DNA of 12,814 nucleotides from Archangiaceae bacterium (GCA_043750125.1 JAYVCD010000355.1:1-12814); one strand, 5' to 3'. Positions 1 to 12,814 are shown, counted from the stretch's first letter. The notes: a model not told the origin generated them from the letters alone. A program made the numbers and translations.

Positions 1-158
1 GAGCACGGCCCCAGTCCGTCAATCTCTTCCTTCAGCTGGGCGCCCTCTGCATCAAGATTGAAAGCTGCCTTCACCTTCAGCGGCCGCTTGCGGTCCGACA
101 TCTGCTGAAACCACTTCGCCAACGTCCATCGACTCATCCCCAGCTCTCCAGCGGCTAC
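1..158 (-). pseudogene. Helix-turn-helix protein fragment, possibly transposase-associated (IS3 OrfA / IS66 TnpA-like); runs off the left edge, 5' end apparently lost
   Basis: Manual minus-strand translation VAAGELGMSRWTLAKWFQQMSDRKRPLKVKAAFNLDAEGAQLKEEIDGLGPC is open to base 1. 'AAGELGMSRWTLAKW' fits the A-x-E-L-G-[IVM]-S-x-x-T-L-x-x-W HTH pattern. Not in the supplied ORF track. Confidence 0.4.
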
Positions 159-416
159 GTGAAGGCCGAGCTGTTGGTGATCGACGACTTCGCCGTGCTC
201 GCGATGGATCCGACGCAGGCCAAGCTCGCCTTTCAGGTCATCTCGGAACGCTACGAGTACAGACGGTCGACTTCGATCACCACCAATCGGGCATTCAAGG
301 ACTGGCCGAAGGTGTTCCCCGACGCACTCAACGCGGAAGTGATCGCCAAGCGCCTCACCGAGCGCTGCGAGCACTTCGTCCTCGACGGCAAAGGCTACCG
401 CCCCGAGGTTTCGTGA
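153..416 (+). pseudogene. istB: IS21-family helper ATPase IstB, C-terminal fragment
   Basis: Walker B LLVIDDF, followed by ISERYE, ITTN, F-x-x-W-x-x-x-F-x-D and terminal G-x-x-YR, typical of IstB/DnaC-like AAA+. No Walker A: the upstream in-frame sequence is open but unrelated to IstB. Confidence 0.85.
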
Positions 417-1322: not shown

Positions 1323-2078
1323 TTAGGGCTGACTTGCAGGAAGTCCGCCGCCAGGAGCGACCAGACGCTGTGCGCGGGCGAGAATCTCTTGGGCCGTGGT
1401 GGGGTTCTCAGAGCGAACCGAGACCGCGAATCCATTGCCGACGGAGGTGACACGTGCCTCGACCCCTTTCGGGACGAGGGGGCAGTTGGGCATTTCCGAA
1501 ATCGCGTGCCCAAGCGCAGAATTTCGCGAGAGGTGACAGTCGACCAGGCGCTGCAACCATTCGGCGGTCATCCCTTCGACAGCGCGGAACGTCACGACTG
1601 CGCCGGCTGGGAGTCGCATTGAGTTCTTGCCACCCGTGGTTGAGTTCTCCAGTCGCACCACCGACACGATGTCCTCGGTGTGCGCGAAAGGGCTGATATC
1701 ACGGTCATCGGGAGCGATGCCCGCGCAGGCGGTGGTTTCGGCTTCCCTTAGTGCGGCAGATGCCGCGCGGTGGTCAGCGGCACGCTTGCGGAAGTCCTCA
1801 GCCGTCCGCCGATGCTCGTCCGTGGGGTTGACCGCTGACGTCCAACATGAAGCGACACTGTTCAGCTCGATCGCCCTCGCGCCCCTTCCAATTGGTGCAC
1901 AGCGCACCCTGGTGGTGGTCGCACCGGGCCGGTATTGCGCGTCGTGCCCGGGCGCCTGGGCCTCCTCTTGTCGGGCGGTGGCCTCATGCTGCGCGGCGCT
2001 CATGTCGTGAGGCTGCGCGCCGGGGGTTGCGCACGCAGCGAGGGCAAATAGCGAGAAAAGGGGAAGTGGTCGGTTCAT
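1323..2078 (-). CDS. Uncharacterised lipoprotein (251 aa), His/Cys/Met-containing
   Basis: Start moved to ATG 2078, which has GGAG upstream. Signal peptide MNRPLPLFSLFALAAC with lipobox LAAC; motifs QPHDMSAAQH, EWLQRLVDCH, EMPNCPL. Confidence 0.8.
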   Translation of the reverse strand: MNRPLPLFSLFALAACATPGAQPHDMSAAQHEATARQEEAQAPGHDAQYRPGATTTRVRCAPIGRGARAIELNSVASCWTSAVNPTDEHRRTAEDFRKRAADHRAASAALREAETTACAGIAPDDRDISPFAHTEDIVSVVRLENSTTGGKNSMRLPAGAVVTFRAVEGMTAEWLQRLVDCHLSRNSALGHAISEMPNCPLVPKGVEARVTSVGNGFAVSVRSENPTTAQEILARAQRLVAPGGGLPASQP

Positions 2079-2179
2079 GAGCTGCTCCAGGGTACGGGCT
2101 ATTGGATTGACCGAAGGTGCGGCCGCGGTCCGCCGAACATTTGCGGTCCGAGGCCGTCCCCGTTTGGGTTGCCCCTCAC

Positions 2180-2194
2180 GCACTTTGTGTGCCA
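2180..2194 (-). promoter_or_regulatory. sigma54 (RpoN) -24/-12 promoter for the 1323..2078 lipoprotein
   Basis: Minus strand TGGCAC-ACAAA-GTGC: exact GG-N10-GC spacing, one mismatch to TGGCAC-N5-TTGC, about 100 nt upstream of the ATG in a ~390 nt intergenic region. Confidence 0.65.
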
Positions 2195-2470
2195 CGAATT
2201 TCTGGGAGCGGTCGGAGATGGGTCTCTCGCGAGGCGGCGGATTCTCGGCGCAAGGATTGCGGTGTCACGTATTCAGTGCAACGGCAGCGCGAGAAGTCGA
2301 CACCTCTGGTGAGCGGTCGCGACCGAAAAGATGGCCCCCAAAGTGCCCGGCCCAACCGAGGTGCAGATCAGCCAGGGCCGTTTCGCCGGTGGCTTCAAAC
2401 TGGCGGAAAGGGTGCTGACCCGCGAAGAGCCCGAGACGGAAGTGTCTTCAGACCTTTGCCTAAAGGCCCT

Positions 2471-3439
2471 TCAGGGGATGACGCAAGACGCTGCGCACTT
2501 CGAGGCGGTGCAGGTGCCGCTGACGCACTCGTCCCCGTTGCCGCAAGCGGCCATCTCGGCACCGCGCAGCGTGCAGGTGCCGGTGGTCGAAAGCGGGGCC
2601 ACTTTGCAGAACGAGCCGACGCAGCCCGCGTTCTCGTAGTTGAACCCCATCAAAGTCACTCCGCATGCCGCCCCTGGCATCGCCGAGCGAACGCAGATGT
2701 TGGTGCTTGCGCACGAGGTGAAGGGCTCGCAGGTCCCATGGCCGAAGACGCATGCCTGGCCCTCTTTGATCGGTGTCGCGCACGTCTTGCCGACGCGATC
2801 GCAGATCAGCCCGAGCTTGCAACGCACCGAAGAGCTGCAGGCCACTGCGACCTCGGCGGTCCCATCGGCGGGGTTCGCCGTGCAGACGCTGTTGACGCAG
2901 CTGTGGCGGTTGACGCACTGGTCGCCCGTTGCGCAGGCCGCACCGGCTGCGAGCTGGGCTTTGCAGACTCCGGCGCAGGCGCCCGAGGCCTTCGCACAGT
3001 AGTTTACGTCTCCGCAGTCGACGTCGGCGTAGCACGCAGTGCCAATCGCAACTTTCCCGTTGAGCGCCTTCTTGCAGTCGGGCGAGACCGATGCTCCCGC
3101 GTTGATGATTGCAGTGCAGCTCAGGCCGGCGACCGAGGTGAGGCAGGGCTGAGCCGAGGTCGCATCGTAGGTGGCCCGATTCGCGGTGACCGACTTGTTG
3201 ACGTCGCTGCAGACAACGGCCGAGTCAATCTGTTTGACCCAGAGGTCTTTGGGCCCGCCCAGGCAGGTCGACGCCTGGCCGCCGATCGCGTCGACGTATT
3301 TGGTACAAAACTCGGTGAGCGTTTGCGCAGCGCCGCCACCACCGCCCGAACCTCCGCCGGACCCTCCGGTCGTTCCACCCGAGGAGCAACCGACGAGGAC
3401 AACGCACGCGACGAGCGAGATCGACTTCAAGCAGTTCAT
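2471..3439 (-). CDS. Cysteine-rich lipoprotein (322 aa), Dickkopf_N/EGF-like repeats
   Basis: Start ATG 3439 with AAGGAG RBS; lipobox LVGC; Gly/Ser linker; repeated G-x-x-C-x4-5-C-x4-5-C units (e.g. GTACYADVDCGDVNYC, GAACATGDQCVNRHSC, AACGNGDECVSGTC). Confidence 0.85.
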   Translation of the reverse strand: MNCLKSISLVACVVLVGCSSGGTTGGSGGGSGGGGGAAQTLTEFCTKYVDAIGGQASTCLGGPKDLWVKQIDSAVVCSDVNKSVTANRATYDATSAQPCLTSVAGLSCTAIINAGASVSPDCKKALNGKVAIGTACYADVDCGDVNYCAKASGACAGVCKAQLAAGAACATGDQCVNRHSCVNSVCTANPADGTAEVAVACSSSVRCKLGLICDRVGKTCATPIKEGQACVFGHGTCEPFTSCASTNICVRSAMPGAACGVTLMGFNYENAGCVGSFCKVAPLSTTGTCTLRGAEMAACGNGDECVSGTCTASKCAASCVIP

Positions 3440-3727
3440 GGGTGCTCCTTCATTCAAGAAAACTGACGGGGTGGTTTCGATGAGCTCTTCGACGATCAGA
3501 ACCCTGTCGACGACGATGAGCTCGACGCGGGGTTCTGCTCGCGGGCAGCGTCGGTCGTCTATCACGCTGAGCCGGGGATCTTCAGCGGAAAGCTCCCGTG
3601 AGAATCGTACAGGGTGAGCGCAGCCGTTTGGTCGCCCAGGGCGTGCTCGACATCACCCAGCGGGGTCACGTCGTCATGCCTCGACCGCGAAAGGACCGTT
3701 TCGCCTGCGCCGCTGATGCGCCCGTGT

Positions 3728-4885
3728 TCACAGCCTGACATCCGTCGTCAGCCTGCTGATAGCGACCGCGCGGATCTTCGGGGCGAGTTGAAACGTGTGC
3801 TCCCCGGCATGAACGACATCGAGCTGGTCGAGCTTCAAGTCCTCCATCGCGATGTGCATCGACCTGGTCACCGCGGGCGCGACCGTGAGCTTGATCTCGA
3901 ACCCCCGCCGCTTGCCGTCGCGGATGACGAGGAAGTCGAGCTCCGCCCCCTGGTAGGTGGACCAGAAGAAGCACTCGCGCTCGTCGAGGCTGAGCAGATC
4001 CACGAGCTGCTCGATCACAAAGCCCTCGAACGACCCCCCCCCCGCAGCGGGAGAACCCAGCAGCGCCTGTTCCGTCCGGATGCCGAGCAATGCGTGGAGC
4101 ATCCCGGGATCGCGCAGGTACACCTTCGGCGCCTTGACTTCCCGCTTGCCGAGGTTCGCGTGCCAGGGCCGCAACGATCGAACCATGAACGTCTGAACGA
4201 GCGCGTCGAGGTAGCGCCGCACGGTGGTGTCGCCGACTCCAAGCGAGCCGCCCAGCTGCGAGTAGTTGATCAGCTGCCCGTGCACGTGACCCAACATCGT
4301 CCAGAACCGAAGCATCGTCGGAGCCGGGACCCCGATCCCCAGCTGAGGAAGATCCGTCTGAATGAACGTTCGAATGAAGCCTTCCCGCCACCGCCAGCTT
4401 TGATCCTCGGTTCGCGCGGTGAAGGCGGCCGGAAACCCTCCCCGGCGCCACAGCTTCTTCCACGCCGTCGGCTTCACCTCGGTCAGGCTGAGTCCGGGGA
4501 GGACGTAGAACGTCACCCGGCCCGCGAGGCTCTCACTGCTCTGCTTGAGCAGCTGCGGCGAGGCGCTGCCCAACACGAGGAACCGCGCCGGGAGCGGACG
4601 CCGATCGCCCAGCCCGCGCAGAGTGGGAAACAACTCAGGGCGCAGCTGCACCTCGTCGAGGACAATCAGGCCCTCCAGAGGCTCGAGTGCCAGAAGGGGG
4701 TCGGTGAGCCGCGCGAGGTCGGTCGAACGCTCGAGGTCGCAGAACTCCACCGGAGGCTTCCTCGATCGGGCGACGGCGCGGGCAAGCGTCGTCTTCCCCA
4801 CGTGCCGGGGCCCAAGCAGCGCCACCACCGGAGTCTCACGCAACAGCTTTCCCAGCGTGCGCTCGTGCTTGAGTCGTCGAATCAC
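3728..4885 (-). CDS. AAA_14 ATPase with C-terminal DUF4143 (wHTH + PD-(D/E)xK-like) domain
   Basis: Likely start GTG 4885 (MIRR...). Walker A GPRHVGKT, Walker B IVLDEVQ, LGSAS, ESLAGR, RGGFP, KAPKVYLRDPG, GAELDF...FEIK. Confidence 0.9.
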   Translation of the reverse strand: MIRRLKHERTLGKLLRETPVVALLGPRHVGKTTLARAVARSRKPPVEFCDLERSTDLARLTDPLLALEPLEGLIVLDEVQLRPELFPTLRGLGDRRPLPARFLVLGSASPQLLKQSSESLAGRVTFYVLPGLSLTEVKPTAWKKLWRRGGFPAAFTARTEDQSWRWREGFIRTFIQTDLPQLGIGVPAPTMLRFWTMLGHVHGQLINYSQLGGSLGVGDTTVRRYLDALVQTFMVRSLRPWHANLGKREVKAPKVYLRDPGMLHALLGIRTEQALLGSPAAGGGSFEGFVIEQLVDLLSLDERECFFWSTYQGAELDFLVIRDGKRRGFEIKLTVAPAVTRSMHIAMEDLKLDQLDVVHAGEHTFQLAPKIRAVAISRLTTDVRL

Positions 4886-4897
4886 GTCAAAACGGGA

Positions 4898-4934
4898 CCA
4901 TGAAGATTCGATGCTCAACGACGAATATTCATGG
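4898..4934. promoter_or_regulatory. 13-bp inverted repeat (operator-like) upstream of the ATPase gene
   Basis: CCATGAAGATTCG-N11-CGAATATTCATGG, 12/13 match, AT-rich, 12 nt from the GTG start. Confidence 0.6.
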
Positions 4935-5067
4935 AATGAGGAATGGACCCGCTGTTCTCGGCGAAGACCTGGAAGGCACGGTCGGAGCGCCTCTACAGCG
5001 GCAGGCGGCGGCCCGCGTGGCGTTTAGGAACTTGCTGGTCCGCCTTTGGGATGCGCGACGCAGCGGC

Positions 5068-5102
5068 TTGAGAAGGCCAGATTGACGTACTAAATTCTGA
5101 CC
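5068..5102 (+). promoter_or_regulatory. sigma70-type promoter and overlapping operator of the TA operon (probably leaderless)
   Basis: TTGAGA (5068-5073), 17 nt, TAAATT (5091-5096), 7 nt, ATG 5104; no SD. Imperfect palindrome 5075-5102 (9/14) centred on GTAC. Confidence 0.6.
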
Positions 5103-5103
5103 T

Positions 5104-5385
5104 ATGAAAGCCTCGAGTATTCGTCCCATCACCGAGCTGAAGAACCGAACCAAGCAGCTGGTCCAAGAGGTCTCCGACTCGGGCCAGTCGGTCGTGATTA
5201 CCCAGAACGGAAAGCCCAAGGTCGTCCTGATGGGCGTCGAAGAGCACGACCGCCTCAACGACACCCTGCTGATGCTGAAGCTGCTGGCGCATGGGCAGGA
5301 AGTGCAGCAAGGCGGCAAGCGGTACTCGACGGCGGAAGTCAGGAAGTTGGCGCACGCCGCCCTCGCGAGGGCGCGGAAGAGATGA
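5104..5385 (+). CDS. Type II antitoxin, Phd/YefM family
   Basis: IRPITELKNRTKQLVQEV...VVITQNGKPKVVLM is the Phd N-terminal DNA-binding signature; ATGA overlap with the toxin. Confidence 0.92.
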   Translation: MKASSIRPITELKNRTKQLVQEVSDSGQSVVITQNGKPKVVLMGVEEHDRLNDTLLMLKLLAHGQEVQQGGKRYSTAEVRKLAHAALARARKR

Positions 5386-5723
5386 GGGCTCGCCGGTACG
5401 CGGTGGAGTGGATGGAAGTCAGCCGTCGCGACCTAGAAGCCATCGCCGCGCATCTGTGGGTCGAAGCTCCACTGCGCGCTGAAAAGATCCTCGACCGGAT
5501 CATCGACAAAGGACAGTCGCTTCGCCGACTTCCACAACGGGGGCGTGTGGTTCCCGAGTTGCGCGATGTCGGAGAGCGCTCATGGCTCGAGCTTCAAGAG
5601 CACCCCTGGAGAATCGTTTATCGAATCACCGGAAACGCCGTCGAAATCCACGGGGTCCTGGACTCGCGTCGGCACCTCGATGACGTCCTGCGCGAACGAA
5701 TTGTCTCGGGCGCCCGAGTCTAA
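5382..5723 (+). CDS. Type II toxin, RelE/ParE family
   Basis: V.W...S..DL.AI ... A.K..D.I ... L...P.RGRVVPEL ... WRIVYRI...[10 protein letters not shown] pattern; 113 aa; coupled to the antitoxin. Confidence 0.9.
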
Positions 5724-5753
5724 GGCGGCCGATCCGAATTGGCCGATCCGGGT

Positions 5754-5773
5754 AGGCGCCATTGATGGCGCCT
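5754..5773. other. Perfect 9-bp inverted repeat between the toxin gene and phosphoketolase (hairpin or operator)
   Basis: AGGCGCCAT-TG-ATGGCGCCT with no U-tract; preceded by direct repeat GGCCGATCCG at 5727-5736 and 5741-5750. Confidence 0.4.
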
Positions 5774-5838
5774 CGTCGAGCCCTCAGTGTCGACTGGCCT
5801 TGTTGCATCCTTCCCGAAGTGAGACGAACGCAACCATC

Positions 5839-8208
5839 ATGGTCCAGGACACAATCGACTCCGACGAGCTCCAGGCACTCGACGACTATTGGCGTGCGGC
5901 GAACTACCTCACCGTTGGCCAAATATACCTGCTGTCGAATCCGCTTTTGCGCGAGCCCCTCCGCCTGCGGGACATCAAACCGCGCCTGCTTGGGCATTGG
6001 GGAACATCGCCAGGCCTGAGTCTTCTGTACGTCCATCTGAATCGGCTCATTCGAAAGCACGATCTCAACGTCGTCTATTTCGCCGGCCCCGGGCACGGGG
6101 GCCCGGCGATCCTGGCCAACCTCTATCTCGAGGGGACCTATTCAGAGGTCTATCGGAACGTGACGGAGAACGAGATCGGGATGTTGCGCCTCTTTCGCCA
6201 ATTCTCGACCCCCGGGGGAGTGCCCAGCCACGTGGGGCCGCCCACGCCGGGTTCCATTCACGAAGGAGGCGAGCTTGGCTACGTGCTGACCCACGCGTTC
6301 GGCGCGGTCTTCGATAATCCTGGTCTCCTCGCAGTAGCCGTGGTGGGCGACGGGGAAGCAGAGACCGCGCCTCTTGAAGGCTCCTGGAAGGGCATTCGCT
6401 TCCTCAACGCCGCCCGCGATGGAGCGGTGCTGCCAGTCCTTCACCTCAATGGTTACAAAATCTCGGGACCGACGGTGCTCGGTCGAGCGACGGACGCGTC
6501 GATCCGCAGCCTTCTCGAGGGGCATGGGTACGACGTTCATTTCGTGACGGGAGACGAGCCGCTCAAGGTTCATCGCGCGCTCGCTGCGACGTTGGACGCA
6601 TGCGTGGCGGACATTCGATCGATTCAAGAAGCGGCGCGAACGCGCGGAGTGGGCGGTACCCCGCACTGGCCCGCGATCGTCCTGCGGACTCCGAAAGGAT
6701 GGACGGGCCCGAAGACGGTGAATGGTCTGCCGGTTGAGGGCACGTTCCGAGCGCATCAGGTGCCGCTGGGCAATGTGCGGGCCGATCCAAAACAATTGTC
6801 GATGTTGGAGACGTGGATGCGCAGCTATCAGCCAGAGCGCCTCTTCGATGAGCACGGACGGCTGGCAAGACACTTGAGAGAGCTCGCTCCGAAGGGAGAC
6901 CGGCGCATGGGCAAGAACCCTCACGCAAACGGCGGGAAGCTCACCGTGCCCCTCGATATGCCCGACTTCGCGGCGTACGCGGTTTCTGTGCCCGAGCACG
7001 GCTCCGTTCACCACGAGTCGACGCGAGCGCTCGGGGGAATGCTGCGCGACATCTACTCCCGCAACCCCAAAACCTTTCGCCTTTTTTGCCCAGACGAAAC
7101 CAATTCGAATCGGCTGGGTGCGGTGTTCGAGGTCGAGACGCGCTGCTTCCAGGAGCCTACCATTGCCATCGACGACCACGTGTCCGCGGAAGGGCGGGTG
7201 ATGGAGGTGTTGAGCGAGCACAACTGCGAAGGGTGGCTGGAAGGCTATGTGCTCACCGGCCGCCACGGCCTCTTTGCGACCTACGAGGCGTTTGCCCTCA
7301 TCGTCGCTTCGATGGCGACTCAACATGCCAAATGGCTCGAAACCTGCGCTTCCCTGCCTTGGCGAGAGCCTGTTCCGTCGCTCAACTACCTGCTCACCTC
7401 AACCTGCTGGAGAAACGACCACAACGGGTTCAGCCATCAGGGCCCGGGGTTCATGGACACCATCATCTCGAAGAGAGGCACTGTCGCGCGCGTCTACTTG
7501 CCCCCTGATGCGAATTGCCTCTTGGCGATCGCCGACCATTGCCTGCGCAGCAAGAACTACGTGAACCTCATCATCATCGACAAACAGCCGCAGCTTCAGT
7601 GGCTGGACATGGCGGCGGCGCGCGAGCATTGCGCGAGGGGTGCGTCGACATGGGAATGGGCCGGCACGGAAGGGAACGCGAAGGATGGGACCGAGCCCGA
7701 TCTGATTCTCGCCTGCGCCGGAGATGTGCCGACCCTCGAGACGCTGGCCGCAGCTTCGTGGCTGCGAAAGAACGTGCCGTCGATGCGCGTGCGCTTCGTG
7801 AACGTGGTCGACCTGATGACGTTGTTCTCACCGCGGGAGCATCCGCATGGAATGAACGACGACAGATTCATCGAGCTCTTTACGAGGGATACTCATGTCC
7901 TCTTCTCGTTTCACGGATACCCCGGCGCCATCCATCAATTGCTCCACGGTCGGCCGAATGCCCACCGCTTCCACGTGCGCGGGTACAAAGAGGAAGGAAC
8001 GACGACGACTCCCTTCGACATGGTCGTTCTGAACGAAACAAGTCGGTTTCACCTCTGCATGGATGCGATCCGGCGTACCCGTCGACCGCTCGCTGACGCA
8101 GGCGAGCGCATCCAGGATTGCGCCCGCATCCTCGAAAATCATCGCGCGTACGTCGACGAGCACTTCGAAGACATGCCTGAAATCTCAAACTGGACCTGGA
8201 CCCCTTGA
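5839..8208 (+). CDS. xfp: Xylulose-5-phosphate/fructose-6-phosphate phosphoketolase (789 aa)
   Basis: [38 protein letters not shown] motif GDGEAET...[49 protein letters not shown]. Start set to ATG 5839 because the extension to 5545 overlaps the toxin gene. Confidence 0.97.
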
Positions 8209-8707: not shown

Positions 8708-9649
8708 CTAGGGCCTGGGAAAGTTGTCGACCGAGACGCAGCTCTTCGAATCGCCCAACTCGAGAAACGGGGGCCAGGTCTGCTTGACGTAGGTGGTGTT
8801 GAAGGCCGCGTCCCAGCACTCGAACTGGGTGGCTCCTTTGTAGCCCATCGCTCCTTCGGTGACGGTCAGCACCCCGAAGCCCGCGCCGGAAGCCAGCCAC
8901 GCGGTTCCCACATCGAGTCGCGAGATGTTGGGGTCGGTGCTTTTGCTCGTGAAACTCATTCCCCCCGACTTGTCCTCATTTTCCTGGTACCCATAATCGA
9001 GGCTCTGCAGCACCTGTCCGGGCTTGACGGTGAACTTCATCACCACCGTGACGGGGAACATGTCGGTGACGTAGCTCACCTCGATTTTTTCCAGTAACTC
9101 GAGGGCCTTCGCCGTCTTCAGTTGATGTGCGACCGCGTCTGCCGCGTGGATGATCAGCGCGCCACTTCCCTTGCGCAGTGACTCGGACGCCTTGAACGAG
9201 CCGGTGACGGTGTCGAAGAACTCGCCGTCCTTCGGCCGGTGCTGGAAGGCGTAGGTAAAGTTCTTGTCGTCGACCTTGGTAATCACGGCCCGAAATTCGA
9301 AGCCCGGGTTGTCCTTGTCTGCCCACGGGCCCCAGGTGCGCGACTCGTCGGTGCGGCTCGTCGGAGGGTAAGAGCGAATGAGGTCCAGGGCCCCGACCAG
9401 GAATGTGAGGATTCCGTTGAACTTGTCGGAAGCGTCCTTCGAGTCGGTATACCGCTGCGAGCGTTCGCCAATCGCGAGTGCATCGCGCCGGGTTCCTTCG
9501 CCGGCCAGGGCTCCGGCGGTGCCGGTCGGCAGCTTGGATCTCAGCTGCTCTTTGGTCGGCATGGCATTGAGGAACTCGAGGTCCTTGTTCGACCAGTTGC
9601 CACAACCGGAAATCATCAGGCAGCTGCACAGAAGCGCGATTGTTTTCAT
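8708..9649 (-). CDS. Uncharacterised lipoprotein (313 aa), last gene of the ECF/caspase operon
   Basis: MKTIALLCSCLMISG-C lipobox; 3 nt after the caspase stop; beta-rich C-half ending ECWDAAF...G...C. Confidence 0.85.
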   Translation of the reverse strand: MKTIALLCSCLMISGCGNWSNKDLEFLNAMPTKEQLRSKLPTGTAGALAGEGTRRDALAIGERSQRYTDSKDASDKFNGILTFLVGALDLIRSYPPTSRTDESRTWGPWADKDNPGFEFRAVITKVDDKNFTYAFQHRPKDGEFFDTVTGSFKASESLRKGSGALIIHAADAVAHQLKTAKALELLEKIEVSYVTDMFPVTVVMKFTVKPGQVLQSLDYGYQENEDKSGGMSFTSKSTDPNISRLDVGTAWLASGAGFGVLTVTEGAMGYKGATQFECWDAAFNTTYVKQTWPPFLELGDSKSCVSVDNFPRP

Positions 9650-9652
9650 GAC

Positions 9653-11317
9653 CTAGTCCCGAAACTCATAGTTGAGAACCGACGCCAATTCGAGATACCC
9701 AAAGTTTCTCACCTGATCGACGTTGTACAAAAGGTAGTGAAGGCGCCCACGCACGCTGATCGACACGCTCTTGCTGATGCGCAGCTTGAGCCCGACCACC
9801 GCGCCCGGTGAGAACGTCTGATAGTTCTGCGCCGGCAGGCCCGAGCCCGGAAACTCGCGACCCATGATGTTCAACCCCAACCGAATGCCAAGGAAGGGGA
9901 CCCAGGTGCTGTCCGGCCACTCGTAGAGAACCGAGCTGCCGACCGAGAGCAGCGAGTAGCGGTAGCCGGTCGTCAACGCTCCGGTCTTCAAAATCCCATT
10001 GGCAAAGCCATACAGCCCATCGATTCCGATTCCGAAGCCCTTGCCGAACGCGTTGTGGAACGTCGCGTCGATTCCGACCACCGGGGCTGAAGGAAACGTG
10101 CCTCCATTCGAGAGCGGCTGATCGAAGACCAGCTGGTAGCTGCCTGAGGCGCCCAGGCTCCAGTGACGGGTGTAGATGAGGTTGCGCTCGACGCCCTTGA
10201 CCGGATCGTCGGCGAACGCGACGTTCTTCAAGCGCGTTTCATCGAGCACCGCCAGTTGCCCCGCGGCGACGGACACCTCACCCACGCGCAGGTGGTCCAC
10301 CAGCCGCCGCTTGACCACGTAGCGCCCGGGGGCCAGCGCGACCCGCCGTTCGACATTGGCCACCTTCGACAGCTCAGCGACCACGAAGCCCCTCGGGTCG
10401 ATCAGAAAGTACGTCCCCGCTGGAACCGCCGCCGGAAACTGCAGCCCTTCCTTGCGGTCGGCAAAATCGGTGAGAACCAGGTCGCCGTTGCCCGCCAGGT
10501 CGAAGCTGAACGTGGGGTGCTGGGCGCCGGCGGCACTCTCGGCGGTGTCGGCGACAGTTCGCTCGTAGGCGTAGGCATAGGCCTCACCCAGGCTGACCTT
10601 CCCGTCTCCGCTGCGGTCCGCGTCGCCGAGCAGGCCACTGGCGAGGTGGTGCGAAAAGTAGCTCCCGCCGATCACATCGGACTCTTGCGAGTCTTCGTCC
10701 GAGGCGCTGGACGTGAGGATCACCAGGCCCTTCGTCGCCCGCGTTTCATCGGCTTCGACTTCGAAGGCGGGGGCCCGGCGGGCTCCCTTGGCGCGGGTCA
10801 TCGTCCCCGATCGACAGGCGTCGAACACCGCGACCCTCATGTCCGCGGGAGACTGGGCCAGCCGCGCCTTCAGCGATTCCATCGGAAGCTTGCTCGACCC
10901 CAGCCGCAGCGCCCCGTCCTTCGCGTGCCCTGAAAAGTAGAAGAAGAGCGAAGTGCGATTGCCCTGGGTGCGGGCGTCTTTGGCGCGACGCTCGAGCTCT
11001 GCCAGCGCGGTCAGCAGATCCTGGGCGTCGGCGTTGAGCAGCAGCATCGCGTCGGGCTCCTGCACCCCTCCGACCCGGGTGAGGATCGCGTGCAGCTTGC
11101 GTGCATCGTCGCGGGCATAGAGCAGCTCGCGCGTTCCGGGCCCGCCTTCGTCATTGCCCGCGATCAACGCGAACCTCCGAATCGGCCCGGAAGGCCCGGC
11201 CGTCGCCGCGGGCATGGGCGCCCACCCCTCTTGCCCCGATGCTGAGCCCGTGAGCATCAGACCCAGCCAAAGCCAGTGACCGCGCGAGGGTCGAGCGGTG
11301 GTGAAGCGCGAAGTCAC
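9653..11317 (-). CDS. Exported caspase-family (Peptidase C14) protease with Ig/PEGA-like linker and probable C-terminal outer-membrane beta-barrel
   Basis: N-terminal hydrophobic signal (WLWLGLMLTGSASG); RFALIAGN, L.YA.DDA, catalytic FYFSGH131 and VFDAC168RSG, SYFSHHL..GL.G.AD, QHP. The last ~170 aa have alternating amphipathic strands ending LNYEFRD. GTGA overlap with the upstream gene. Confidence 0.9.
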   Translation of the reverse strand: MTSRFTTARPSRGHWLWLGLMLTGSASGQEGWAPMPAATAGPSGPIRRFALIAGNDEGGPGTRELLYARDDARKLHAILTRVGGVQEPDAMLLLNADAQDLLTALAELERRAKDARTQGNRTSLFFYFSGHAKDGALRLGSSKLPMESLKARLAQSPADMRVAVFDACRSGTMTRAKGARRAPAFEVEADETRATKGLVILTSSASDEDSQESDVIGGSYFSHHLASGLLGDADRSGDGKVSLGEAYAYAYERTVADTAESAAGAQHPTFSFDLAGNGDLVLTDFADRKEGLQFPAAVPAGTYFLIDPRGFVVAELSKVANVERRVALAPGRYVVKRRLVDHLRVGEVSVAAGQLAVLDETRLKNVAFADDPVKGVERNLIYTRHWSLGASGSYQLVFDQPLSNGGTFPSAPVVGIDATFHNAFGKGFGIGIDGLYGFANGILKTGALTTGYRYSLLSVGSSVLYEWPDSTWVPFLGIRLGLNIMGREFPGSGLPAQNYQTFSPGAVVGLKLRISKSVSISVRGRLHYLLYNVDQVRNFGYLELASVLNYEFRD

Positions 11318-12087
11318 GGCTTGAGAAAAGTCCGATGAAATTGCTCGCCGGGAAGGTCCAGAGTTCCCAGCTGCGACAGGTTGCCCCGCGCTTCGTCATA
11401 GCGGGCCCGGGCCGCGCGGCGAACGTCTTCCACGTCGATCGGGTCGGCGGTCATCACCACGACCAGCCGCTCGAGGCCGTGCCCGGTGAACTCGAGACTG
11501 TCCGACAGGTATTCCTTCGCCCCGTCGTTGCGCACCCGAATGCTGGGCCCGCGCTCGGGGTACAGCGCCGTCACCTCGCCGCTCTCGTCGATGCTCACCG
11601 CGGCGAGGTAGCGGTAGTTGCCGGCGCGGAACCCGATTCGGACCCGTTCGCCGTGGCCGAGCGCCTCGGGAAGCAGGGGATCAGGCGACCCCATGCGCTG
11701 CGGGCCGTTGGCCTGTCCGGCGATCACCACTTCGACTTCGCTGCCGCCCTTGAGTCGGTGGGTGGGCTCGCCGGTCGTCGCGCGCATCACCAGAGGGATT
11801 CCGGCCAGCAACAACACCGTCGCCGCGATCGCGATCAAGATCTTGACCGGCCCTCCCGTGGTCTTCGGAGTCGGCCTCGGCTGACGCATCGCTCGCTCGA
11901 CACCGGCCGCAAAGCGCTCGAACGGAATCGCGGCTTCGAAGCTCTGCTGCTGCTCTTGAAGTTGGGTCAGCCGCGCCTTGCAGTCCGTACAGCCGGTCAG
12001 GTGGGTGGATATGGCTTCGATCGTTTCGCCCGTGAGCAGCCGACGCAGCTCGATTTCCCGGGGGTGAAGGGGGGCTGCTGGATTCAT
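11314..12087 (-). CDS. Transmembrane anti-sigma factor: zf-HC2 (ZAS) + TM + DUF4384
   Basis: HLTGCTDC = HxxxCxxC; TM ILIAIAATVLLLAGIPLVM; periplasmic L..GERVRI.F...YLAAVSIDESGEVTALYP is DUF4384-like; ATGA overlap with the sigma gene. Confidence 0.85.
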   Translation of the reverse strand: MNPAAPLHPREIELRRLLTGETIEAISTHLTGCTDCKARLTQLQEQQQSFEAAIPFERFAAGVERAMRQPRPTPKTTGGPVKILIAIAATVLLLAGIPLVMRATTGEPTHRLKGGSEVEVVIAGQANGPQRMGSPDPLLPEALGHGERVRIGFRAGNYRYLAAVSIDESGEVTALYPERGPSIRVRNDGAKEYLSDSLEFTGHGLERLVVVMTADPIDVEDVRRAARARYDEARGNLSQLGTLDLPGEQFHRTFLKP

Positions 12088-12614
12088 GGCTCGTCGAACT
12101 CCGCCTTTGTTGCCGCAGCGAACTCACGCAGGCGTTTGCGAATGGTGGGCACCGAACGGCCCAGAAGTACCCCGATCTCTTCCAGCGTCATCTCGTCGAC
12201 CCAGTAGTGCACGACGGCCGACTGGGTCTCGAGGTCGAAATTTTCCAGCGCCCGCCGCACCAGGTCGCGCTTCTCGAGCAGGTGAGGGCCGCCGTGACCT
12301 TCACCGCGGTTCTGCTCGTCGCGCGCGTATTGCCCCTTCCACTTCGCCGCATCTGAGCGCAGCAGATTGAGGCAATGGTGGGTGCTGATCTTGAGCAGCC
12401 AGGTGAGGGGAGACGACTCGCCGCGAAATTCGCGCTCATGAACCATGGCTCTGGCGAATACGTCCTGCATCGCGTCCTCCGCCTTGGCGGAATCCTTCAA
12501 GAGGTACTGACAGCGGCCGTACACCGTGCTGCCGAACTTCACGTACAGCTCTTTCAACCAGACACGCCCAGCGCTCTTTCCCCCTTCGATGACTTCGAGC
12601 GCCGGACGGTTCAT
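12084..12614 (-). CDS. ECF RNA polymerase sigma-70 factor
   Basis: Region 2 AEDAMQDVF...TWLLKISTHHCLNLLR; region 4 EMTLEEIGVLLGRSVPTIRKRL; 176 aa. Confidence 0.93.
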   Translation of the reverse strand: MNRPALEVIEGGKSAGRVWLKELYVKFGSTVYGRCQYLLKDSAKAEDAMQDVFARAMVHEREFRGESSPLTWLLKISTHHCLNLLRSDAAKWKGQYARDEQNRGEGHGGPHLLEKRDLVRRALENFDLETQSAVVHYWVDEMTLEEIGVLLGRSVPTIRKRLREFAAATKAEFDEP

Positions 12615-12646
12615 GCACCGTTAGTTTACCTACGACTGCGCTCCAT

Positions 12647-12814
12647 TCAGGGAGCGACGAGTGAGAAGTCAGCGGTCTTGAAGGCGCAAGCGCTTTCGGC
12701 GCCCCAACCGCCGGTGGGTGCAAACGACGCCACCAGGTAGCGCGAGGCGAAGTTGCTGTCCCAGCACTCGCTGAAGGTCGCTTCCGAGGTCAGGTTGCCT
12801 CCGTTGACCTTCAC
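12647..12814 (-). CDS. 3' end of an upstream gene, paralogous to the 8708..9649 lipoprotein (partial)
   Basis: Manual translation VKVNGGNLTSEATFSECWDSNFASRYLVASFAPTGGWGAESACAFKTADFSLVAP*, stop at 12647-12649. Shares ECWDxxF-x3-Y-x6-P-x4-G-x4-C with the downstream lipoprotein. Confidence 0.8.
   Translation of the reverse strand: MKVNGGNLTSEATFSECWDSNFASRYLVASFAPTGGWGAESACAFKTADFSLVAP

What the first reader, a model, noticed from the sequence alone, without database searches (positions are those of the whole stretch)
8708..12814. Candidate trans-envelope caspase signalling system: ECF sigma + ZAS/TM/DUF4384 anti-sigma + OM-barrel-anchored caspase + lipoproteins
Seen: four genes coupled by ATGA and GTGA overlaps and a 3-nt gap. 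Their products are predicted for the cytoplasm (ECF), inner membrane (anti-sigma) and periplasm/outer membrane (caspase-barrel with intact His131/Cys168, lipoprotein). Known: ZAS anti-sigmas are released by regulated proteolysis, and the Myxococcus DdvS/DdvA pair uses an anti-sigma carrying a caspase-like CHAT domain. Inference: here a separate, operon-encoded C14 protease acts as a dedicated site-1 protease, relaying a surface cue to the sigma factor, like FecARI cell-surface signalling but caspase-driven. Similar clusters probably recur in myxobacteria; I know of no mechanism described for them.
Basis: partly seen in the sequence, partly recalled or inferred. Interest (0 to 1): 0.85.

Follow-up and report, generated by a model that had tools for sequence, protein, structure and literature searches.

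The report
Sigma-factor switch with outer-membrane-tethered caspase
A myxobacterial operon encodes a stress-type sigma factor, its membrane inhibitor, a caspase-like protease anchored to the outer membrane and two unknown lipoproteins, and a short motif shared by inhibitor and protease suggests, untested, that the protease frees the sigma factor by cutting the inhibitor.

Summary
On the minus strand lie an ECF sigma (12614..12084), a ZAS/TM/DUF4384-like anti-sigma (12087..11314), an exported C14 caspase homologue with a predicted 8-strand OmpA-like barrel (11317..9653) and a lipoprotein (9649..8708). They are joined by ATGA, GTGA and a 3-nt gap. A fifth gene, a paralogous lipoprotein, is cut by the contig end (12814..12665).

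The sigma/anti-sigma/caspase triad is colinear in 57 of 60 loci fetched by caspase match alone from Myxococcota genomes. It recurs in at least four more places in this genome.

Every anti-sigma has K-G/S/T, mostly R-x-K-G, 8-30 residues beyond its TM helix. Loss of the Arg co-varies between partners in at least three lineages.

Not supported: a surface cue or a FecA-like mechanism. The barrel is a small anchor and the caspase most likely faces the periplasm.

Sigma/metacaspase operons were noted in print in 2012 (PMC3501461), without a mechanism. This scan has reported the same module, and the shared motif, on other DNA. Cleavage is untested. My odds that the caspase is the site-1 protease: about 0.45.

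The parts
12665..12814 (-). 3' end (50 aa) of an upstream lipoprotein paralogue, cut by the contig end; first gene of the five-gene cassette
   Evidence: Ends ...SECWDSNF...; tblastn of this fragment hits the gene upstream of the sigma gene in L008 (76%) and L012 (54%). A paralogous lipoprotein lies upstream of the sigma gene in 19 of 40 full-type loci, 10-93 nt before the sigma start in the 11 orthologous loci where the gap could be measured, of 13 examined.
12084..12614 (-). ECF (group 4) sigma factor, 176 aa
   Evidence: Sigma70_r2 2.1e-12 (47.1 bits, cut-off 24); TIGR02937 sigma70-ECF 65.6 bits (cut-off 42.9); region 4 hits are below cut-off.
11314..12087 (-). Single-pass anti-sigma factor, 257 aa: cytoplasmic helical ZAS domain, TM helix, short linker, periplasmic beta domain (DUF4384-like)
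   Evidence: AF2 model, mean pLDDT 87.5: helices 11-66, helix 80-104, low-confidence 105-110, strands from 117. DUF4384 matches 23 of 35 family members at E<=0.01 and zf-HC2 matches 4 of 35. The window protein itself scores 18.9 bits, below the cut-off of 27.
11980..12003 (-). H-x3-C-x2-C zinc-anti-sigma motif (H29, C33, C36)
   Evidence: C33 and C36 are invariant and H29 is at least 90% conserved in 35 sequences; H8 is also invariant.
11776..11850 (-). Transmembrane helix of the anti-sigma (residues 80-104)
   Evidence: Helix 80-104 in the AF2 model; hydrophobic stretch ILIAIAATVLLLAGIPLV.
11746..11757 (-). R111-L-K113-G114: candidate site-1 cleavage motif in the periplasmic juxtamembrane linker
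   Evidence: It lies between the TM helix (ends at 104) and the first strand (117). K113 and G115 are at least 90% conserved. K-[GST] is found at this place in all anti-sigmas of the 76 pairs, and R is at -2 in most.
9653..11317 (-). Exported caspase homologue (554 aa): signal peptide, C14 domain, beta-sandwich, 8-strand barrel
   Evidence: Peptidase_C14 9.3e-12. AF2 model, mean pLDDT 79.3. Foldseek hits to caspases/MALT1 and to OmpA/NspA/OmpX/Ail. The N-terminal hydrophobic stretch plus A-x-A-like site aligns across homologues.
10499..11179 (-). Peptidase C14 domain (residues 47-273) with H131 (10925-10927) and C168 (10814-10816)
   Evidence: Pfam match 47-273. H131 and C168 are invariant in 34 of 34. 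The closest solved sequences are metacaspases (7qp0 1e-6).
10784..10798 (-). T174-R-A-K177-G178: invariant motif in the disordered loop after the catalytic Cys; candidate autoprocessing site
   Evidence: R175, K177 and G178 are invariant in 34 of 34. The loop 172-184 has pLDDT below 50. K-G is present at Cys+9/+10 in all 76 paired caspases.
10217..10477 (-). Beta-sandwich domain (residues 281-367) between caspase and barrel
   Evidence: Strands 281-367 in the AF2 model. MALT1 caspase-Ig3 chains align over long stretches. No profile similarity to the anti-sigma's periplasmic domain (hhalign probability 0.12).
9659..10165 (-). Eight-strand outer-membrane-type beta-barrel (residues 385-553)
   Evidence: Eight long strands in the model. 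Foldseek: OmpA TM domain 4e-9 (TMt 0.71), NspA 2.4e-8 (TMt 0.78), OmpX, Ail. Opacity matches 13 of 34 homologues and OMP_b-brl 9 of 34; the window protein itself has no such Pfam hit.
8708..9649 (-). Lipoprotein of a family seen here only in Myxococcota (313 aa; lipobox I-S-G-C16; WGP and C-terminal ECWD...C motifs)
   Evidence: No Pfam or NCBIfam family. Atlas neighbours above TM 0.5 are unnamed Myxococcota clusters only. A homologue lies directly downstream of the caspase in 40 of 40 full-type loci and in 0 of 20 paralogue-type loci.

Best explanation
This is a five-gene envelope signalling cassette: lipoprotein', ECF sigma, anti-sigma, barrel-tethered caspase, lipoprotein.

Proposed working:
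1. The anti-sigma holds the sigma at the inner membrane through its zinc-type cytoplasmic domain.
2. The caspase homologue is exported and anchored by a small barrel on the periplasmic face of the outer membrane.
3. On activation it first cuts its own T-R-x-K|G loop just after the catalytic Cys.
4. It then cuts the anti-sigma after Lys113 in the R-x-K|G linker, about 9 residues outside the inner membrane. This removes the DUF4384-like domain.
5. The short stub becomes a substrate for the RseP-type site-2 protease, and the sigma is released.
6. The two lipoproteins are accessory sensors or regulators.

Shown here: the genes, domains, predicted folds, conservation of gene order, and the motifs with their co-variation. 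Inferred: every proteolytic step, the basic P1 specificity, the order of events and the role of the lipoproteins.
For: (1) Gene order.
- Sigma, anti-sigma and caspase are colinear in 37 of 40 loci taken from 40 Myxococcota genomes by a full-length caspase match. Of the other three, two are cut by contig ends and one lacks the sigma gene.
- They are colinear in 20 of 20 loci of paralogous caspases with other C-termini.
- They are colinear in 9 of 12 related loci from genome contigs.
- In this genome, all 5 anti-sigma-family hits with E below 1e-30 lie next to a caspase-family gene.

(2) Tight coupling by ATGA and GTGA overlaps.

(3) Shared motif.
- Caspase R175, K177 and G178 are invariant (34 of 34) and lie in a loop with pLDDT below 50.
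- Anti-sigma K113 and G115 are at least 90% conserved and lie in the non-regular linker between the TM helix and the first strand.
- K-G (K-G/S/T in the anti-sigma) is present at both places in all 76 pairs.
- The background rate of R.KG is 0.005 per 30 residues in this genome's long ORFs. None of 7 other TM-bearing ZAS anti-sigma candidates of this genome has it.

(4) Co-variation.
- Arg is absent from both partners in 4 pairs, from the caspase only in 1, from the anti-sigma only in 4, and present in both in 66. Fisher p = 2.7e-4.
- The four double losses fall in at least three separate clades of the caspase tree.
- A fifth no-Arg/no-Arg pair is on C231.

(5) Specificity. The closest solved sequences are metacaspases. 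Metacaspases and orthocaspases cut after Arg or Lys, and MaOC1 activates itself by cutting at Arg219 (PMC7475262 and PMC3501461, passages).

(6) DUF4384 elsewhere. It is fused to orthocaspases (PMC7475262). It also forms the C-terminal domain of some Csx30 proteins, the sigma-binding substrates of the caspase-like Csx29 (bioRxiv 10.1101/2022.08.17.504292, passages).

(7) A Peptidase_M50 (RseP-type) gene is present in this genome at 4e-66.
Against: - No cleavage has been observed anywhere.
- The motif is short and the co-variation rests on few events: 3 to 4 joint losses against 5 one-sided ones.
- Geometry is awkward. An outer-membrane-tethered caspase must reach a site about 9 residues from the inner membrane. 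This is an inference, not a computation.
- The S1 pocket was not analysed, so basic P1 specificity rests on family resemblance alone.
- The motif in the anti-sigma abuts the first strand of the periplasmic domain. It could be conserved for structural reasons.
- No fused anti-sigma-caspase protein was found. There were no hits among longer proteins. None of the 150 best representatives is long enough to hold a caspase domain, apart from one sigma-anti-sigma fusion.
- Co-transcribed genes of an ECF operon can simply be its regulated output.
Confidence: 0.45

Rival explanations
1. Output model. The barrel-tethered caspase and the lipoproteins are what the sigma factor switches on, namely an envelope-remodelling or quality-control protease set. 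The anti-sigma is inactivated by something else: general periplasmic proteases plus RseP, or oxidation or zinc loss of its ZAS domain.
For: ECF operons are commonly self-regulated, so co-transcribed genes are outputs by default (established knowledge). The ZAS H-x3-C-x2-C motif is intact. The lipoproteins travel with only one subfamily of the caspases, 40 of 40 against 0 of 20, as cargo might. No caspase-anti-sigma fusion was found.
Against: It does not explain three things. First, the identical conserved R-x-K-G motif in both proteins and its co-variation. Second, why the triad, and not only the sigma/anti-sigma pair, is kept through deep paralogy, with caspase identity down to about 35%. Third, why the anti-sigma carries a domain otherwise fused to caspase homologues.
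Confidence: 0.28
2. Reverse-control model. The anti-sigma's periplasmic domain and linker dock onto the caspase as a pseudosubstrate or inhibitor. The membrane protein then regulates the protease, or both are cut at R-x-K-G by a third protease, and the caspase's true substrates are other envelope proteins.
For: The shared motif fits a pseudosubstrate as well as a substrate. DUF4384 is an accessory domain of orthocaspases of unknown role.
Against: The motif lies in a flexible linker next to the membrane, where site-1 cuts are made in known anti-sigma pathways (PMC11506125, passages). No third conserved protease gene lies in the cassette.
Confidence: 0.12
3. Defence or cell-death model. The cassette is an anti-phage or programmed-death device whose caspase destroys envelope proteins once the sigma is induced, as first suggested for myxobacterial metacaspases.
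For: PMC3501461 discusses myxobacterial metacaspases as candidate autolytic enzymes (passage). ECF sigmas and caspase-like proteases work together in DdvS/DdvA and type III-E systems. A toxin-antitoxin pair and an IS fragment lie on the same contig.
Against: No PADLOC defence model matches apart from a 21-bit generic 'caspase' hit. There are several paralogous copies per genome and very wide vertical conservation across Myxococcota families. The neighbours are housekeeping genes, for example phosphoketolase here.
Confidence: 0.07

Closest known systems
Sigma-70/metacaspase operons of Myxococcus xanthus DK1622 and other Deltaproteobacteria (Asplund-Samuelsson et al. 2012, PMC3501461; passages read)
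   Same: The same gene association. The paper states that four of the five M. xanthus metacaspases lie in operons sharing a sigma-70-type factor. It also reports the arrangement in Anaeromyxobacter, Haliangium, Sorangium, Ralstonia and Fibrobacter.
   Different: In the passages I read, the paper reports co-occurrence only. It mentions no anti-sigma, no barrel anchor, no lipoproteins, no motif and no mechanism. Its supplementary tables were not available to me.
DdvS/DdvA of Myxococcus xanthus (PMC11506125; abstract and passages)
   Same: An ECF sigma and a single-pass zinc-type anti-sigma, with a caspase-fold protease in the periplasm proposed to make the site-1 cut in the juxtamembrane linker before RseP acts.
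   Different: In DdvA the protease is a TPR-CHAT domain fused to the anti-sigma, about 900 residues, dimeric and acting on itself in trans. Here it is a separate C14 protein on an outer-membrane barrel, and the anti-sigma ectodomain is a small DUF4384-like beta domain. DdvA controls a CBASS/CRISPR island; no defence genes lie here. Cleavage is unproven in both.
Type III-E CRISPR 'craspase': Csx29 cuts Csx30, which binds an ECF-type RpoE (bioRxiv 10.1101/2022.08.17.504292; passages)
   Same: A caspase-like protease cuts a sigma-binding inhibitor in a linker. Some Csx30 C-terminal domains are DUF4384.
   Different: That system is cytoplasmic, RNA-guided and CHAT-type, with Cas7-11 and Csx31. None of these is present here.
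RseA/DegS/RseP regulated intramembrane proteolysis and FecA-FecR-FecI cell-surface signalling (established knowledge; RIP summarised in PMC11506125)
   Same: A two-step release of an ECF sigma from a single-pass anti-sigma: a periplasmic site-1 cut, then a site-2 metalloprotease. A Peptidase_M50 gene is present in this genome.
   Different: The site-1 enzyme would be a cysteine protease of family C14 encoded in the operon, not DegS or Prc. There is no TonB-dependent transducer and no FecR domain.
Orthocaspases and metacaspases such as MaOC1 of Microcystis (PMC7475262; passages)
   Same: A His/Cys C14 fold, probable Arg/Lys P1 specificity, self-activation by a cut after a basic residue, and association with DUF4384.
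   Different: Those are cytoplasmic or undefined in location, with no known substrate. This one is exported, barrel-anchored, and paired with a candidate substrate.

Membership tests
ECF (group 4) sigma-70 factors | Only regions 2 and 4, small size, match to the ECF model | tested here: met
   176 aa. Sigma70_r2 47.1 bits (cut-off 24). TIGR02937 65.6 bits (cut-off 42.9). Region 4 models are below cut-off at 21.5 against 25.7.
ECF classification group (ECF Hub numbering) | Assignment to a numbered group with its conserved context | not testable with these tools
   No ECF-group models are on hand. The main text of Casas-Pastor et al. 2021 (PMC7826278) has no 'caspase' or 'C14'. Its supplements, which describe the groups' gene neighbourhoods, were closed.
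Zinc-binding (ZAS) class I anti-sigma factors | N-terminal helical anti-sigma domain with H-x3-C-x2-C | tested here: met
   H29-x3-C33-x2-C36, with the two Cys invariant in 35 sequences. Helices 11-66. zf-HC2 matches 4 of 35 relatives, not the window protein itself. Zinc binding cannot be tested here.
DUF4384 (PF14326) | Score at or above the Pfam gathering cut-off | tested here: inconclusive
   The window protein scores 18.9 bits against a cut-off of 27. 23 of 35 family members match at E<=0.01, best 2.6e-6. Some database relatives are named DUF4384 proteins by their sources.
Peptidase C14 (caspase/metacaspase/orthocaspase) | C14 fold with a His/Cys catalytic dyad | tested here: met
   PF00656 45.6 bits (cut-off 21.4). 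H131 and C168 invariant in 34 of 34. Foldseek hits to caspases and MALT1 at 1e-7 to 1e-6.
Metacaspase/orthocaspase subgroup | Cleavage after Arg or Lys | not testable with these tools
   The closest solved sequences are metacaspases, 7qp0 at 1e-6. The specificity pocket was not analysed and activity needs an assay.
NF047832 caspase, EACC1-associated type | Score at or above the curated cut-off | tested here: not met
   60.5 bits against a cut-off of 140.
Small outer-membrane beta-barrels (OmpA TM domain / OmpX / Opa / NspA type) | Eight antiparallel TM strands at the C-terminus of an exported protein | tested here: met
   This rests on a predicted structure only. Eight strands at 385-553. Foldseek: OmpA 4e-9, NspA 2.4e-8, TMt 0.71-0.78. 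Opacity matches 13 of 34 homologues and OMP_b-brl 9 of 34, but there is no Pfam hit for the window protein itself.
Cell-surface signalling (FecA/FecR/FecI type) | TonB-dependent transducer with a signalling domain, and a FecR-type anti-sigma | tested here: not met
   No TonB-receptor or FecR match in any of the cassette's proteins. The barrel has 8 strands, not 22.
DdvA-type anti-sigma | Periplasmic TPR-CHAT domain fused to the anti-sigma | tested here: not met
   The anti-sigma is 257 aa with a beta domain of about 140 residues and no CHAT or TPR match.
Type III-E craspase module | Cas7-11, Csx29 (TPR-CHAT), Csx30/Csx31 | tested here: not met
   No PADLOC match apart from a 21-bit generic caspase hit. 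Nothing of that kind was found among the window ORFs searched against Pfam and NCBIfam.
Bacterial lipoproteins | Signal peptide ending in a lipobox Cys | tested here: met
   MKTIALLCSCLMISG-C16 read from the sequence. A lipobox Cys is conserved in the alignment of 62 upstream and downstream paralogues. Sorting to the outer membrane was not tested.

The most novel reading that the evidence does not exclude
The cassette is a built-in reporter of outer-membrane assembly or envelope geometry.

The caspase is fused to a small barrel that must be inserted by the BAM machinery. The candidate cut site in the anti-sigma lies only about 9 residues from the inner membrane. A correctly inserted, outer-membrane-tethered caspase is therefore held out of reach.

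The protease could meet its substrate and switch the sigma on in two situations:
- barrel insertion fails and the uninserted protease accumulates in the periplasm;
- the two membranes come abnormally close.

This would be a 'bait OMP fused to its own site-1 protease'. It is functionally analogous to unfolded-OMP sensing by DegS, or to periplasm-width sensing in the Rcs system, but built from a caspase. The multiple paralogous copies per genome would then monitor different conditions through their different C-terminal anchors and lipoproteins.
Probability: 0.12. Interest if true: 0.85.

Novelty: new variant of a known kind. Interest (0 to 1): 0.6.

Why it matters
Bacterial caspase homologues are abundant, but almost none has a known physiological substrate. 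They are usually discussed only in terms of cell death.

This cassette offers a concrete, cheap-to-test substrate: the cognate anti-sigma, at R-x-K|G. It also offers a signalling rather than a killing role. If true:
- it adds a fourth protease class, after serine proteases such as DegS, Prc and signal peptidase, the PrsW type, and self-cleaving domains, to the site-1 step of ECF sigma activation;
- it gives the stand-alone counterpart of the still unproven CHAT model for DdvA;
- it explains dozens of orphan ECF sigma factors in myxobacteria, which carry several copies per genome.

Tried and rejected
- **Complex prediction.** I folded the caspase (residues 41-378) with the anti-sigma ectodomain (104-257), both with alignments. 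ipSAE was 0.12 and 0.19, under the mark of 0.32, so there is no verdict either way.
- **Fused forms (Rosetta stone).**
  - No relative of the anti-sigma was found among proteins of 451-2000 residues (the tool itself calls this weak evidence).
  - Among the 150 best of 7,379 representatives, only two were much longer than about 300 aa. One is a sigma-anti-sigma fusion and one is joined to a permease fragment. Neither holds a caspase.
- **Domain relatedness.** Profile comparison of the anti-sigma ectodomain with the caspase's beta-sandwich found no relation (probability 0.12).
- **Fold of the anti-sigma.** Foldseek against the PDB gave nothing at E<=0.001. The best rows were RhoGDI-like Ig sandwiches at about 3e-3.
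- **Lipoprotein.** No Pfam or NCBIfam family. Atlas neighbours outside its own family have TM below 0.5, with DUF748/TamB-like rows as leads only. No R-x-K-G motif is conserved in 62 aligned paralogues, so I dropped the idea that the lipoproteins are substrates at the same motif.
- **Promoter search.** The gap between the upstream lipoprotein gene and the sigma gene is 10-93 nt in the 11 orthologous loci where it could be measured, of 13 examined. I saw no conserved box by eye. The consensus scan found nothing above chance. I did not attempt a regulon search.
- **FecARI-like surface signalling.** Rejected; see the membership test.
- **Defence system.** PADLOC was negative.
- **First synteny attempt.** The search for related loci gave only 14 loci, so I replaced it with the genome search plus fetched regions.
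- One search failed because my coordinates for L011 were wrong. I corrected them.

Full report
**What is there.**
The window is one whole 12,814-base contig of a 460-contig metagenome-assembled genome, 89% complete. Database relatives of its proteins are named Myxococcaceae, Archangiaceae or Myxococcota.

- 12614..12084, 176 aa;
- 12087..11314, 257 aa;
- 11317..9653, 554 aa, GTG start;
- 9649..8708, 313 aa.

They are joined by an ATGA overlap, a GTGA overlap and a TAG-GTC-ATG 3-nt gap.

Upstream, the last 50 codons of a fifth co-directional gene run off the contig at 12814..12665. It ends in the same ECWD-type C-terminal motif as the downstream lipoprotein. The unit is therefore a five-gene cassette whose first gene is cut.

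**The proteins.**

*Sigma.* It is an ordinary ECF sigma: Sigma70_r2 at 2e-12 and TIGR02937 at 65.6 bits against a cut-off of 42.9.

*Anti-sigma.*
- It has H29-x3-C33-x2-C36, with both Cys invariant in 35 relatives.
- Its AF2 model (pLDDT 87.5) has cytoplasmic helices 11-66, a TM helix 80-104, a low-confidence linker and a beta domain from residue 117.
- The DUF4384 label is weak for this protein, 18.9 bits against a cut-off of 27. It holds at family level, where 23 of 35 members match at E<=0.01. zf-HC2 matches 4 of 35.

*Caspase.*
- It has a Peptidase_C14 domain at residues 47-273, 45.6 bits against a cut-off of 21.4.
- H131 and C168 are invariant in 34 of 34 homologues.
- Its N-terminus is a signal-peptide-like hydrophobic stretch that aligns across homologues.
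- The database gene call for this very protein starts at Met35 (520 aa, P0001). That start would remove the signal peptide, and the alignment favours the GTG start.
- The AF2 model (pLDDT 79.3) shows the caspase fold, a beta-sandwich at 281-367, a disordered hinge at 370-380 and eight long strands at 385-553.
- Foldseek matches the C-terminal part to the OmpA TM domain (4e-9), NspA (2.4e-8), OmpX and Ail. It matches the N-terminal part to caspases and MALT1.
- Opacity and OMP_b-brl Pfam models match 13 and 9 of 34 homologues, though not the window protein itself.
- By sequence the nearest solved proteins are metacaspases.

*Lipoprotein.* It has a lipobox Cys16 and belongs to a family without any Pfam or NCBIfam model. 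Its Atlas neighbours above TM 0.5 are Myxococcota clusters only.

**Topology.**
An eight-strand barrel has both ends on the periplasmic side (established knowledge of OmpA-type barrels). Its predicted outward loops are short: 12, 4, 8 and 9 residues by the strand limits.

The caspase therefore most likely hangs into the periplasm from the outer membrane. There is no sizeable surface receptor.

**Conservation.**
A profile of the caspase found matches at E<=1e-20 in 144 of 201 sampled Myxococcota genomes, often several per genome. That tally includes one genome, G196, flagged as unpublished.

I fetched 60 loci chosen only by their caspase match.
- *40 full-length matches, one per genome, from many families*:
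  - sigma, anti-sigma and caspase are colinear in 37;
  - two are cut by contig ends (L023, L053);
  - one (L055) has a membrane-protein gene on the other strand where the sigma gene should be;
  - the lipoprotein follows the caspase in 40 of 40;
  - a paralogous lipoprotein precedes the sigma gene in 19 of 40.
- *20 matches covering only the caspase and sandwich*:
  - the triad is colinear in 20 of 20;
  - the lipoprotein is absent in 20 of 20.

Among the 14 loci from named public records, 12 encode a caspase at 34% identity or more.
- Nine have the colinear triad.
- Two are cut by contig ends but keep the anti-sigma.
- One (L018) has the sigma/anti-sigma pair downstream of the caspase instead.
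- The two most distant, labelled Ferruginibacter and Alphaproteobacteria, have no sigma pair.

In the window's own genome there are further cassettes:
- on C429 and C108, colinear;
- on C321, where the sigma/anti-sigma pair converges on the caspase gene;
- on C231, where the caspase frame looks broken.

All five anti-sigma-family hits with E below 1e-30 lie next to a caspase-family gene. One caspase, on C354, has no sigma pair within 7 kb upstream.

The core is therefore the triad. The lipoproteins belong to one subfamily.

**A shared motif.**
- In every caspase the loop just after the catalytic Cys carries K-G at Cys+9/+10, mostly as T-R-x-K-G. R175, K177 and G178 are invariant in 34 of 34. 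This loop is the least confident part of the catalytic domain, with pLDDT below 50 for 172-184. It is where caspases carry their intersubunit processing site (established knowledge).
- In every anti-sigma a K-G (rarely K-S or K-T), mostly R-x-K-G, lies 8-30 residues after the TM helix. In the window this is R111-L-K-G114, between the helix end (104) and the first strand (117).

Controls:
- R.KG occurs 1.8e-4 times per residue in this genome's long ORFs, which is 0.005 per 30-residue window.
- None of seven other TM-bearing ZAS anti-sigma candidates of this genome has it.
- Three caspase homologues without a sigma neighbour (L019, twice, and L020) lack it. A fourth, weak caspase-like ORF on L005 carries A-K-G at about the same distance from its Cys.

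Co-variation of the Arg, among 75 non-duplicate pairs:

| Arg status | pairs |
|---|---|
| missing from both partners (L004, L015, L054, L077) | 4 |
| missing from the caspase only (L047) | 1 |
| missing from the anti-sigma only (L002, L018, L037, L055) | 4 |
| present in both | 66 |

- Fisher p = 2.7e-4. The automatic table before I resolved five rows by eye gave 1.7e-4.
- On a caspase tree the four double losses fall in at least three separate clades. About 0.5 coincidences are expected if the losses were independent, and P(3 or more) is 0.017.
- The broken C231 pair, not in that count, is also no-Arg/no-Arg.
- The numbers are small and kin are not independent. This is suggestive, not proof.

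**Mechanism.**
Metacaspases and orthocaspases cut after Arg or Lys, and MaOC1 activates itself at Arg219 (PMC7475262 and PMC3501461, passages).

The simplest reading is that the caspase processes its own T-R-x-K|G loop and cuts the anti-sigma at R-x-K|G. That cut would clip off the whole ectodomain and leave a stub of about nine residues. This is the condition under which RseP-type site-2 proteases act (summarised in PMC11506125). A Peptidase_M50 gene is present in this genome. The steps are inferred; none is shown.

The main difficulty is reach. A protease tethered to the outer membrane must cut next to the inner membrane.

That difficulty suggests the boldest reading the data allow. The caspase may reach its substrate only when its barrel is not inserted or when the envelope is deformed. 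The cassette would then be a reporter of outer-membrane assembly or geometry.

**Literature.**
- Asplund-Samuelsson et al. 2012 (PMC3501461, passages) already state that four of the five M. xanthus DK1622 metacaspases lie in operons with sigma-70-type factors. They report the same arrangement in Anaeromyxobacter, Haliangium, Sorangium, Ralstonia and Fibrobacter. In what I read there is no anti-sigma, anchor, motif or mechanism.
- DdvA (PMC11506125) carries a fused periplasmic TPR-CHAT domain proposed, but not shown, to make the site-1 cut.
- In type III-E systems the CHAT protease Csx29 cuts Csx30, which binds an ECF-type RpoE. [quoted passage not shown]
- A review notes CHAT proteins in the context of group ECF54 (PMC8999054).
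- Searches for DUF4384; anti-sigma + caspase + ECF; ECF + sigma + Peptidase_C14; Myxococcus + ECF sigma + caspase; orthocaspase + sigma factor; metacaspase + anti-sigma; and Myxococcota + caspase + outer membrane + sigma factor gave no paper describing this module's working.
- The main text of the ECF re-classification (PMC7826278) has no 'caspase' or 'C14'. Its supplements, which list conserved neighbourhoods, were closed and could bear on novelty.

**Earlier notes of this scan.**
I looked at these only after finding the motif. They report the same five-gene operon, the outer-membrane-tethered caspase and a shared cleavage-type motif on other genomes. So the scan has found this before on other DNA. 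Those notes are unchecked AI readings and I do not count them as evidence.

**What failed.**
- The complex prediction gave no verdict.
- No fused caspase-anti-sigma form was found.
- The anti-sigma ectodomain has no clear structural relative, and it is not related to the caspase's sandwich.
- No defence-system model fits.
- No promoter could be defined.

**Verdict.**
My odds are about 0.45.
- The 'surface cue' part is not supported.
- The gene association is in print; the mechanism is not. I class it as a new variant of a known kind (regulated proteolysis of an ECF anti-sigma) and score interest at 0.6.

Noticed in passing
window 3-416 (+): The 5'-open ORF at the contig start matches the C-terminal part of IstB (IS21 helper ATPase; PF01695 8e-17, profile positions 145-231). 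An insertion sequence probably broke the assembly here.
   Followed up: no
window 5104-5385 and 5382-5723 (+): A Phd/YefM antitoxin (1.7e-17) and a ParE toxin (3.6e-11) with a 4-nt overlap: a type II toxin-antitoxin pair between unknown ORFs and the phosphoketolase gene.
   Followed up: no
window 5545-8208 (+): Phosphoketolase (XFP_N, XFP and XFP_C, 3.5e-161). The listed ORF begins 103 residues before the Pfam match and overlaps the ParE gene, so the true start is probably further downstream.
   Followed up: no
window 2117-3466, 3614-4903 (+) and 1323-2195 (-): Long ORFs (449, 429 and 290 aa) with no Pfam or NCBIfam match. In DNA of 65% G+C they may be spurious or may be unknown genes.
   Followed up: partly
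window 11215-11317 (-): The public database's gene call for this caspase (P0001, 520 aa) starts at Met35 and so lacks the signal peptide. Homologues of 84-86% identity carry the longer N-terminus.
   Followed up: partly
L004 (G000:C321) 2067-5267: In this paralogous cassette of the same genome the sigma/anti-sigma pair lies on the opposite strand and converges on the caspase gene. Both partners have lost the Arg of the motif (LATKG / WTAKG).
   Followed up: partly
G000:C231 5739-7651: A fifth cassette whose caspase frame is only a 223-residue segment starting mid-domain. It is either a broken gene or an assembly error. Its motif pair is LQKG / GVKG.
   Followed up: partly
G000:C263 6056-6751 (-): One frame holds an ECF-like N-terminus, a TM helix and then R-P-K-G, but no caspase gene was recognised nearby. 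It may be a remnant or a different partner.
   Followed up: no
L055 (G073:C36) 1-2968: The only complete locus of 60 without a sigma gene before the anti-sigma. A 634-aa membrane-protein ORF on the other strand takes its place, and the anti-sigma motif there is SATKG.
   Followed up: partly
L041, L049, L052: In three loci two lipoprotein paralogues follow the caspase, and none was found upstream of the sigma gene. The same five genes appear in another order.
   Followed up: no
P0281 (515 aa): A database protein with Sigma70_r2 at 47-113 and the anti-sigma family match at 220-515. It is either a sigma-anti-sigma fusion or a run-through gene call.
   Followed up: partly
anti-sigma C-terminus, window 11314-11350 (-): The last strand ends in a strongly conserved ...GEQFHRTFLKP. 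K256 is invariant and penultimate in 35 relatives, and a Lys near the C-terminus is kept in distant paralogues. Its role is unexplained.
   Followed up: no
caspase residues 202-214, window 10676-10714 (-): A nearly invariant acid-rich segment, SSASDEDSQESD, follows the post-Cys loop. It is a candidate for binding the basic P1 and P3 residues, but I could not inspect the model's pocket.
   Followed up: no
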